Assembly (NCBI GenBank): GCA_964016885.1
Contig: OZ024766.1
Span: forward strand, 1,860,001 to 1,924,000
Source of the DNA: Eledone cirrhosa
Lineage: Eukaryota
Length of the DNA stretch: 64,000 bases
Direction: 5' to 3'
Part shown: in pieces, positions 13,045-55,500 of the stretch
How positions within the stretch are numbered: position 1 is the stretch's first letter
Layout: the number at the start of each line of letters is the position of its first letter
Translations under genes and position numbers: made by a program
Notes under the pieces: generated by a model
The model's database searches: none
Told to the model about the DNA's origin: nothing
The model's input: only the letters and a program-made list of their open reading frames with translations

Positions 13045-13515
13045 ATGGAACTGGGGCCGTACGCTGGTGAAGTCGGGTTGACCGGTGAGGCCTTGCAGGC
13101 GGGGACGCTGACCCCTCCGGACAAGGTCAAGGTTGGCCTGGTCTTCGAGATCATTAAGTACGCCAAGCGGCTCAACGTGTCGTGCCTCCAGTCGGCGCGG
13201 TGGATCCTGTCGCTGTTCCGTGAGGCCGACATCAGCAGCATCGGTGGGGGAGGCACTGGCACCCCGGGCGCTGGGGCTGGACCCGGGACTGAGCTGGGTG
13301 TGGCCTACCGACGCCGCCTGCTGGACTACATCCGCAGGTCGGCGTCGAGGAAGTACAGCAAGCGCGAGAAGGTGCGTGGACGGAAGCGCAAAGAGTTCCT
13401 CGACTCCCTGTTTGAGTTGCCGAGCAGCCTGCCCGCGGAGAGAGAGAACCAGTACCCGAGCACCGAGGAAGAGCTAAGTCCTCCGCCACCAAGGACACAA
13501 GTTGACAACAATACA
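13045..13515 (+). CDS. POGZ: Exon 1 (first visible coding exon): N-terminal helical domain [12 protein letters not shown]...[10 protein letters not shown]
   Basis: GC-rich, codon-biased ORF. ATG at 13045, donor GTAAG at 13516, phase 0 joins in frame to exon 2. The true start could lie further upstream. Confidence 0.7.
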
Positions 13516-52500: not shown

Positions 52501-55500
52501 CCTTTAGCATTTAAACCGGCCGTATCTGGCAAGAATTCTCTCACCTCTTTCTGTTCAAACCGGCTGTAACCAGCCACTCATACTGATGTTAAGGTATTGT
52601 TTTCAAAATAAATAATAATAAAATCTCATAGATTTGATATTATGGGAGGTAAAGCCTTTACCATGAAAATACAATAGTATATATAGAGTAATGTAAATGT
52701 TATGTGAAGTAAAGCCTTTACTGTGAAAATACAATAGTATATATAGAGTAATGTAAATGTTATGTGAGATATTATGGGAGGTAAAGCCTTTACTGTGACA
52801 ATACAATAGTATATATAGAGTAATATAAATGTTATGTGAGATATTATGGGAGGTAAAGCCTTTACTATGACAATACAATAGTATATATAATGTAAATGTT
52901 ATGTGAGGTAAAGCCTTTAGGTTTGCAGTCCTGCCCCTAGCAGTGGAGACTTCTGGTGTCCTTGGCCCTAGGGCTACATTCCTATTTACCACCATAGGCA
53001 CTGAGCTGGCCAGCCATAGGTGTGAGCCTCGCGAGACGGAATGGCTCTCCCAGCGCATCTCCCTTAACATCCTCTAGTGAAGGACCTTCTCCAGGCTGTG
53101 GGGCAGCCAGCACTTGGGACCCCATTTCCTCACAATACAGAGAGATGGAGGTGATGACAGTGGGAGTTCAGCTCTTCCCTGTTTGGAGACATTTATCAGT
53201 TCTATGTTGTTGTTGATACTTAAATAATATCCTTGTTAAATTGTAACTCTATATATATCATCATCATCATCATTTTACGTCCGCTTTTCCCTGCTTGCAA
53301 GGGTGGGACGGGTCCTATTCAGCACAGCATCTCTCCACTTGTCACGGTCCTTCGTCATCTCCTCCGTGAGACTAATGTAAATGCTAAAGGGTTAAAATGC
53401 TTGATTGTGCAGCAGAAAAATTAATCTTTCGTACCTGAAAATATCCTAAATCTATAATTCATCCTTGTATTGATTTTAATTTTTTTTCAATTTCAATTAA
53501 TTTTCCTTTTTTTTCTTCTTTTTTTTTTCTTTTCTTTTTTTCTTTTTTTTTTCTTTTTTTTTTCTTTTTCCTCTACCTTGATTCCAAACAGATGAGTGGA
53601 CTCCAGAAGAGTGGGAGAAACTACAAAAGGACTGCACCACATATGGATTCTGGTTTGCCATCACAGACTACATCTACTCCTGCGAGGACTACACGTTTGT
53701 GAAGATCCTTCCGCGGATATTTGAGAACTTGTTCCTCGACCCCCCGGAGAACATCTCCAATTTCCTGTCCCGAATCCGTCGTCGACTGAAGCGCGGCGGT
53801 GTCGACTGGATCAAGGAGACCTTCATCGAACACGAACTGAACCTGGGGCCACTCTGTGAGAAACTGGGGATCAGCGTCGAGCAGCTGAAGAAGGGCGAGA
53901 GCCCGAAGGTTGCGCCGACCCAGCTGTCGAAGGCCCTGGCCCTAGAGCTGCTCTACTACAAGAAGCGGCACCCCGCAATGAGCTACGCCGACCTTGCCGC
54001 GTGGATCAAGCTGATATTCGACTTCCCCGCCCTGCCCGACCAGCGGGATCTGCATTTCCAGCTGGAGGGCATCCACCGGCTGAAGAACAAGCTCCGGGGA
54101 CACAAGACGGAAGTGGTGAAGATGCTGAAGGAGCCATTCGAGCCGGTGTTCACTGCTGCCACGGGGCCTGGCGAGGGCACCTCCGACGAAGAGGAAGAGG
54201 AGTCGGCAGAGCTGGCAGAAGGGGAAGAGTTGGACGAAGGAGAAAGTGGCGAGGGGGGGCTGGCAGATGGTGCTTCTACCACCGCTGCCCTGGCCAGCTG
54301 TAGCAACAGCAAGACCGCCACCACCACCACTACTACTACTACTACTACAGGATCTGACAGTGACCTTGCCGTCGCCACCACCGCCGCCTCCGTCAAAGAT
54401 GGCGATGAGGAGGAGCAGGAGGATGAGGAAGAGGTGGTAGGAGGTGACGAATGTGACGATGACTTTGTCGAGGAAGATTACGAGGCTGAGGGGGAGGGTC
54501 GCTACGGCGACGAAAGTGGTGATGACCTACTCGCCTCCTCCTCCTCCCCCCCGGGACGTGGGTCGGCGAAGATGTCGCGACCCGACAAGGAAGGGTCCGT
54601 GGAATCGTCGGCCCGCGAGGAACTTGCCGAAGGGTCGACTGGCAAGGACAGCTTCGATGTCGCTGCTTCTTTGCCGACAGCGCAGAACAGGAAGAGGACC
54701 CACTCTGAAACAGCGGGTTCGGAATCTGGGGAGACGAAGCTTAAGGGTTCTGCTTCCGTCGCTACGGAGCACGACCCCGTCGCCAAGAAAATCTGTTCGC
54801 AAGAAACCGAAAAGAAGGACAACAAAAGTGGCGATGGAGGACTGAAACATGCGAAGGGGAAGCCTCGGGAAGATGTTACTGCTGCAACTGGCCTTGGTGA
54901 CGGTAGCGAGGAAGAAGTTAAAGGAACAAGCACTGGGTCAGATACCAGTAATTCAGGAGGGAAAGCCATGCCAGGCATCGCTCCGAAGAAGGATGACGAG
55001 AAAGGGAATAAGGACAATGATAATAATAAGAGCGATTCCAAAGGAGTCGCTTCCCCTGCTGTTGCCGGGGTTACGAAGGTGGCGCCACTGTCGAAGAAAG
55101 AGGAGAATGATTCGAGTACAGACGCTGCGTCGAAAACCAATTTGTCAATTTCCGGGAGAAAATGCGAAGGAGATGTCGATAGTAGTAAGAGGAAGGCCTT
55201 GTCGGATGTTGATGGGGGTGGTGACAAATTGAGGCCTGGTAGTGGTGGGGGAGATGCTGCTCTGTCTTTGGGCCGTAAAGGAAGTGAGGGGTCACCAGAG
55301 AAACGGAGGACAAGAGATGACGGAGTGTCTTCTGCCGCTGGCGCAGCACCGGCTGCAGTGAATAAGAGCGGAGAGGAACTGAAAGGCAAAGTGCTGACAT
55401 CATCGCTGTCGAGTAAGAGCGAGAGTGAAGTGAGTCGCTCTGAAAAGATGGTGGAGCCATCGTCGAAGGAAGTTCAGCAGGAGAAGTCCAAAGACAATGC

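What the first reader, a model, noticed from the sequence alone, without database searches (positions are those of the whole stretch)
13045..54145. An unassigned ~100-aa domain occurs twice in this POGZ-like protein, bracketing the zinc-finger core where vertebrates have a transposase
Seen: exon 1 (13045-13422) [58 protein letters not shown]...[38 protein letters not shown] aligns by eye with exon 16 (53837-54145) [61 protein letters not shown]...[35 protein letters not shown]. Shared pattern: LGP..G...L..G, L..E...Y.KR, WI...F, K.RG.K, FE(x)P. Established: human POGZ begins almost directly at the MECEE motif and ends in a pogo CENP-B HTH/DDE region, and no such region is visible here. Inference: a lineage-specific, basic, helical (possibly DNA-binding or TE-derived) module was added at both sides of the HP1-binding finger core. 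I do not recognise the domain.
Basis: partly seen in the sequence, partly recalled or inferred. Interest (0 to 1): 0.82.

Follow-up and report, generated by a model that had tools for sequence, protein, structure and literature searches.

The report
Unclassified twin domains in cephalopod POGZ
In octopus and cuttlefish the chromatin gene POGZ carries two related copies of a small helical domain that matched no family I could search and is missing from the other invertebrate versions I checked; the domain likely helps aim the protein at DNA and may have come from a jumping gene.

Summary
Both segments are in one spliced gene: one 3,852-nt contig joins 13515 to 19952 and runs on through 53592-54301, and the cuttlefish POGZ model has both. 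The copies are related (0 of 2000 shuffles; profile-profile E 1.5e-4), but only the first ~60 residues align firmly. Both are conserved between octopus and cuttlefish (70% and 61%), absent from 36 of 36 non-cephalopod orthologues, and match nothing in Pfam, PDB sequences, ESM Atlas or fold searches. Copy 2 folds as a six-helix domain (pLDDT 73). The module did not replace a transposase: invertebrate POGZ has no pogo domain. Instead copy 1 sits where several other protostomes carry a THAP DNA-binding domain, which this locus lacks. Best reading: a cephalopod-specific DNA-targeting module added to the HP1-adaptor core (about 0.45). Transposon origin is a lead only: one weak match to the front of a decayed transposase-like gene, no better than the reversed-sequence null.

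The parts
12863..13515 (+). First coding exon (second exon of the transcript); start codon at 13045; ends in phase 0
   Evidence: Spliced contig on 12862-13519 with loose ends matching an upstream exon and the 19952 exon; AG/GT ends; two short out-of-frame upstream ORFs, no in-frame ATG before 13045
13045..13422 (+). Copy 1 of the unclassified helical domain (aa 1-126), with a Gly-rich insert at 13231-13302 that the cuttlefish lacks
   Evidence: 57 of 82 aligned residues identical to Sepia
19952..20168 (+). Exon with the likely ancestral start codon (ATG at 19955) and the MECEE motif
   Evidence: most non-cephalopod orthologues start within about 20-55 residues before the same motif
24003..32956 (+). 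POGZ zinc-finger core, seven exons, including the zf-POGZ double finger
   Evidence: PF25429 E 1.9e-14 on the Sepia orthologue; 350 of 373 identical to Sepia; tree
28127..28129 (+). One-base surplus in a G run that breaks the frame in the assembly; likely an assembly error
   Evidence: tblastn frame change against Sepia; spliced contig is one base shorter than the exon sum
34626..34706 (+). Exon with the LDVLGLVKK motif conserved across lophotrochozoans; included in the contig, optional in Sepia models
40844..40894 (+). Optional exon, present in Sepia isoform CAE1280536, not in the X2 contig
52270..53830 (+). Region 3: a further ~110-aa unclassified helical block (coding parts 52270-52370 and 53592-53830) directly before copy 2; not a detectable third copy
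   Evidence: 98 of 110 identical to Sepia; absent from 36 of 36 other orthologues; no significant match to copies 1 or 2; low-confidence helices, pLDDT 41-47
53837..54145 (+). Copy 2 of the unclassified helical domain (about aa 1008-1110)
   Evidence: 64 of 105 identical to Sepia
54146..61523 (+). Long low-complexity tail (rest of the 4.7-kb exon to 58282, predicted exons 58935-59485 and 61181-61523) ending in an Arg/Gly/Tyr-rich stretch, of the kind other lophotrochozoan orthologues also have
   Evidence: contig cover shown only to 55900

Best explanation
This is the single octopus POGZ gene, and it encodes, on one spliced transcript, two diverged copies of a cephalopod-specific six-helix domain around the conserved zinc-finger core; the copies likely bind DNA and aim the predicted HP1-binding core at chosen sites, and they possibly came from the front end of a DNA transposase. 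Shown: gene structure, homology of the copies' first ~60 residues, conservation in octopus and cuttlefish, absence from other orthologues. Inferred: (1) before octopuses and cuttlefish split, a module was inserted between the finger core and the acidic tail, together with region 3; (2) a second copy became an extra coding exon spliced in frame just before the old start codon, the slot that holds THAP in several other protostomes, while THAP is no longer found at this locus; (3) the basic helices 3-5 contact DNA, so the protein reads DNA through these modules as fly ROW does through AT-hooks. The order of steps 1 and 2 is not known.
For: Single spliced contig and Sepia model. Conservation of 70% and 61% against 49% and 22% in the linkers. 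0 of 36 other orthologues hit; the window's core groups with Sepia at 100/100 inside a mollusc clade at 99/98. THAP in 6 of 32 scanned orthologues, N-terminal in 5, a seventh seen by eye, none in the window plus 20 kb upstream. Fly ROW binds DNA through AT-hooks, and the sites predicted for its fingers did not match its motifs (PMC9724677, passages). Net basic charge; all-helical model, pLDDT 72.7 alone and 78-90 in the longer model. Several helix-turn-helix DNA-binding domains occur among the weak fold hits (DnaA domain IV, TnsB, Mos1, StbA, Fur; Z 3.7-4.5). Capture of transposase DNA-binding domains by splicing is a recurrent route in vertebrates (10.1101/2020.05.07.082677, passages). An ORF at the front of a decayed transposase-like gene (G000:C4:234792375-234792659) is the top hit of the two-copy profile among 2,517 ORFs in 400 kb and aligns to helices 3-4.
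Against: No binding data of any kind. The fold hits are not significant: best Z 4.8, none at 5 or more among 48,161 chains, and unrelated helical proteins rank as high; Foldseek found nothing at E 0.001 or better. The transposon lead fails its null: 9.6 bits (E 0.16) against 10.9 bits for the best reversed ORF of the same set; the element is single-copy by four searches, has no Pfam match and no clear terminal repeats, and its reading as a transposase rests on recalled motifs. Copy 2 is only mildly basic (net +4 in octopus, +3 in Sepia). THAP isoforms may be missing from some orthologue records, so THAP loss is inferred from patchy data. Only three cephalopod species were seen.
Confidence: 0.45

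Rival explanations
1. The domain is a protein-pairing module: the two copies pair with each other (closing the protein into a loop) or between molecules, or recruit a cephalopod-specific partner, and DNA contact is secondary.
For: The best conserved shared positions are hydrophobic (Y, W, I, F); two copies in one chain suit a pseudo-dimer; region 3 is acidic and 89% conserved, as a protein interface might be. Some transposase N-terminal domains both dimerise and bind DNA (recalled, Hermes), so this may go together with the best explanation.
Against: Conserved aromatics are also expected of any folded core; the long basic helix of copy 1 is kept in both species.
Confidence: 0.3
2. The domain is a member of a widespread but unannotated family (for instance the N-terminus of a transposase family common in marine invertebrates) that these searches could not reach; the cephalopod novelty is then only its capture by POGZ.
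For: The two protein searches depend on shared five-residue words and on lengths up to 2,000 aa; own-genome searches scored only 2-11 candidates each; the exhaustive profile search never ran; the C4 lead points this way.
Against: No Pfam, PDB-sequence, Atlas, viral or metagenome hit; the C4 lead is within its null.
Confidence: 0.45
3. The module arose from a host gene by exon shuffling, or de novo inside POGZ and then duplicated, with no transposon involved.
For: No transposon copy is detectable in this genome; region 3 contains an intron and is more conserved than the copies, as in an old host domain pair.
Against: No donor host gene was found either; accessory domains of POGZ in other lineages are of transposon type (pogo, PMC7386202; THAP).
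Confidence: 0.3
4. The two segments are unrelated amphipathic, basic helical stretches that resemble each other by chance.
For: Single-pair BLASTP E only 0.030; the Sepia pair is not significant; hhalign probability 51%.
Against: Residue, block and reversed controls and the whole-protein test all favour homology for the octopus pair; both start with the same LGP motif at the same register.
Confidence: 0.07

Closest known systems
POGZ / ZNF280 family; Drosophila ROW
   Same: MECEE motif, finger core with zf-POGZ (PF25429), orthology by tree. ROW works with HP1b/c and reaches DNA through accessory AT-hooks (PMC9724677, passages).
   Different: Two copies of an unclassified helical domain plus region 3, seen only in octopus and cuttlefish; HP1 binding not tested here.
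Vertebrate POGZ (finger core fused to a Passer/pogo transposase)
   Same: A lineage-specific module follows the finger core.
   Different: No HTH_Tnp_Tc5 or DDE_1 here or in 32 scanned invertebrate orthologues; the module is doubled and one copy is N-terminal; no catalytic domain.
THAP-bearing POGZ isoforms of Mytilus, Ostrea, Capitella, Centruroides, Lingula
   Same: An extra domain placed in frame before the ancestral start (N-terminal in 5 of the 6 Pfam hits; internal in Lingula).
   Different: The cephalopod domain has no C2CH zinc motif and no THAP match.
Host-transposase fusion genes (Cosby et al., 10.1101/2020.05.07.082677)
   Same: A new domain added by splicing to an old chromatin regulator and then kept under selection.
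   Different: The donor transposon is not identified; those cases are vertebrate and mostly add the transposase downstream.

Membership tests
POGZ / ZNF280 / ROW | zf-POGZ double finger (PF25429) within the C2H2 core | tested here: met
   E 1.9e-14 on the Sepia orthologue, whose core is 94% identical to the window's
POGZ / ZNF280 / ROW | Orthology with other protostome POGZ | tested here: met
   Tree of 28 cores (27 of the 37 hits plus the window): sister to Sepia 100/100, inside molluscs 99/98; midpoint root only, no vertebrate or insect rows
POGZ / ZNF280 / ROW | Binds HP1 | not testable with these tools
   Known for human POGZ and fly ROW (passages)
Vertebrate pogo-fused POGZ | HTH_Tnp_Tc5 and DDE_1 after the core | tested here: not met
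   No Pfam family at E 1 or better on 53594-58288; none on the Sepia and O. bimaculoides proteins
THAP domain | C2CH zinc-binding motif, PF05485 | tested here: not met
Helix-turn-helix DNA-binding domains | Three-helix core that superposes on an HTH | tested here: inconclusive
   Z 3.7-4.5, rmsd 3-5 A, tied with unrelated helical proteins; Foldseek no E below 0.001
Helix-turn-helix DNA-binding domains | Binds DNA | not testable with these tools
   Only charge and context
Host-transposase fusion | Captured domain matches a transposase family | tested here: inconclusive
   One weak match (hhalign E 6.5e-4 for the single pair; E 0.16 in its search set and below the reversed null)
Host-transposase fusion | Fusion transcript is made and conserved | tested here: met

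The most novel reading that the evidence does not exclude
Cephalopod POGZ captured an undescribed transposase DNA-binding fold twice, and the two copies pair into a clamp that retargets HP1 chromatin in cephalopods; POGZ is then a recurrent landing pad whose DNA-reading part was swapped independently in vertebrates (pogo), arthropods (AT-hooks, a reported dead Merlin domain), other protostomes (THAP) and cephalopods (this domain).
Probability: 0.25. Interest if true: 0.75.

Novelty: new variant of a known kind. Interest (0 to 1): 0.58.

Why it matters
POGZ is a high-confidence human neurodevelopmental gene whose way of finding DNA is unsettled. A version that gained new conserved domains in the lineage with the largest invertebrate brains gives a natural domain-swap experiment, and the two unclassified domains (the repeat and region 3) are small, conserved and easy to express. 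If the transposon link holds, it adds an invertebrate case of old transposase capture and names a DNA-binding fold that has no Pfam entry.

Tried and rejected
No match for either copy: Pfam at E 1, PDB sequences with the two-copy profile (best E 1.1), ESM Atlas (best 0.78 for copy 2, nothing usable for copy 1), viral contigs (0 of 82 pattern hits), metagenome contigs (0 of 224), earlier scan findings by sequence. Fold searches gave no clear match; this does not show a new fold; the viral structure library and a wide search with the longer model could not be run. Region 3 as a third copy: rejected for now (best 15 of 1000 shuffles in one of 16 tests; hhalign E 0.24 or worse). Weak own-genome hits to region 3: six of the seven loci read are copies of one short repeat with a stop inside, taken as chance. 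Relatives of the C4 transposase-like piece: none in this genome or in metagenomes (0 of 223); two viral loci matched only 17 residues and were not followed. No RNA holder is listed as such; X2 is of unrecorded type and is used only for what its contig joins; all three runs are one study. Literature searches found no description of cephalopod or mollusc POGZ architecture (open-access library only; listings seen, not full texts; preprint supplements not seen). The hATx paper (PMC8721813, passages) describes a BED-finger transposase and did not help to place the C4 element.

Full report
Observation. The two segments are in the sequence as quoted. Their likeness is weak by BLASTP (23% identity, E 0.030) but survives controls: local score 61 against 0 of 2000 residue shuffles, 0 of 2000 block shuffles and 21 for the reversed copy. 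Aligned to the whole rest of the predicted protein, copy 1 finds copy 2 as its best hit, reached by 3 of 1000 shuffles. Profiles built from three and two sequences align over 58 columns with E 1.5e-4. The firm part is the first half, LGP to WIxxIF.

One gene. A cuttlefish (Sepia pharaonis) POGZ model, CAE1280535, was the only hit for copy 1 (1 of 982 candidates) and one of two for the copy 2 region (2 of 1008, the other an Octopus bimaculoides partial protein); it maps colinearly along the window. In run X2, of unrecorded type, a 3,852-nt contig covers 12862-13519 and goes on with the first bases of the 19952 exon, while runs X1 and X3 read on into the intron. A contig of the same length and depth covers 52232-52367 and then 53589-54301. 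Summing the AG/GT-bounded exons, with 34626-34706 in and 40844-40894 out, predicts record position 2962 where 2961 is seen; the one-base gap matches a frame break near 28127-28129 that is therefore likely an assembly error. A contig alone does not prove one transcript and the runs are one study, but the Sepia model is independent. A 141-nt untranslated exon lies at about G000:C27:1850334-1850474; ATG 13045 is the first in-frame start. The model is about 2,786 aa, of which the last 1,670 are low-complexity.

Distribution. A search with the finger core returned 37 proteins of 444 candidates: Sepia and 36 others from gastropods, bivalves, a chiton, a brachiopod, nemerteans, annelids, a scorpion and three unnamed records. 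None of the 36 is hit by profiles of copy 1, copy 2, both, or by region 3; some of the 36 are partial. After the conserved LDVLGLVKK motif, the others pass into an acidic, low-complexity tail. A tree of 28 cores puts the window with Sepia (100/100) inside molluscs. Octopus-Sepia identity is 94% in the core, 70% in copy 1, 61% in copy 2, 89% in region 3, and 49% and 22% in the linkers, so all three added blocks are under constraint.

What other POGZ proteins carry. Of 32 orthologues scanned with Pfam, 6 have THAP (5 N-terminal) and none has a pogo HTH or DDE domain. A local THAP profile finds nothing in the window or the 20 kb before it. The exon at 19952 has its own ATG three bases in, at the place where THAP-less orthologues begin, so copy 1 occupies the slot that THAP has in Mytilus, Ostrea, Capitella and Centruroides. 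The vertebrate transposase is a vertebrate addition (PMC7386202, passages). Fly ROW reaches DNA through AT-hooks (PMC9724677, passages), and the human finger region binds HP1 (10.64898/2026.07.02.736104, passages): a conserved adaptor core with changing DNA-reading parts is the pattern this gene fits.

What the domain is. No Pfam family, PDB sequence, Atlas cluster, viral or metagenome relative was found, and each copy is single in this genome by a loose first look. AlphaFold2 on a three-row alignment gives six helices, mean pLDDT 72.7, 78-90 in the longer model. The wide fold search tops out at Z 4.8; helix-turn-helix domains recur in the list but tie with unrelated helical proteins, and Foldseek has nothing at E 0.001. 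The fold is thus unplaced, not shown to be new. Copy 1 was not folded.

The transposon lead. An earlier scan note pointed to a locus of this genome with many transposon-derived first exons before a BTB exon. I located it and scanned it. The top hit of the two-copy profile is a 94-aa ORF ending at a splice donor (G000:C4:234792375-234792659), about 3 kb before a decayed frame that I read from recalled motifs as a DDE transposase core. It aligns to helices 3-4 of copy 2 in all three species and beats 2000 of 2000 shuffles of itself, but in the 2,517 ORFs of the 400 kb scanned its E is 0.16 and the best reversed ORF scores higher (10.9 against 9.6 bits). It is single-copy and has no Pfam match. 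It is a lead, not evidence.

Mechanism and verdict. I commit to a DNA-targeting role for the twin domain on an HP1-adaptor core (0.45), with protein pairing as the main functional rival (0.3, not exclusive). On origin, capture from an unannotated transposon family is about as likely as not. The gene is a known one; its cephalopod architecture was not found in seven literature searches of an open-access library and is a new variant of a known kind. The exhaustive profile search did not run, which is the main gap. Interest 0.58.

Noticed in passing
window 52270-52370 and 53592-53830: Region 3: an unclassified ~110-aa block, 89% identical between octopus and cuttlefish, more conserved than either copy and absent from 36 other orthologues.
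   Followed up: partly
window 28127-28129: One-base surplus in the assembly breaks the finger core; annotation of this genome may split or truncate the gene.
   Followed up: yes
L012:334-474 and window 12863-13044: The 5' UTR holds two short upstream ORFs (16 and 10 codons), the second spanning the first intron.
   Followed up: partly
L028:2375-6500 (G000:C4:234.792-234.797 Mb): Decayed, single-copy transposase-like gene with no Pfam match, interrupted by a LINE piece, directly before a broken duplicate of the BTB exon of the neighbouring cassette gene; the end of its first exon is triplicated.
   Followed up: partly
L019-L027 (G000:C4:234.70-234.79 Mb): Row of THAP, DUF3504 and CENP-B-like ORFs before BTB exons, as the earlier notes describe.
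   Followed up: partly
P0043 (Centruroides) about aa 590-850: By eye a Merlin/IS1595-like stretch inside the scorpion POGZ orthologue, which also has THAP; Pfam gave no IS1595 hit at E 1.
   Followed up: partly
P0022, P0023, P0026, P0035, P0039, P0041, P0043: THAP-POGZ fusions in bivalves, a brachiopod, a nemertean, an annelid and a scorpion; N-terminal except in Lingula; not found described in the search.
   Followed up: partly
window 55990-56440: Tandem 10-aa repeat ([10 protein letters not shown] type) inside the large exon.
   Followed up: no
window 9541-10296: ORF with alanine-rich repeats and a CxxC motif that looks like a Helitron N-terminal fragment (recalled), in the first intron.
   Followed up: no
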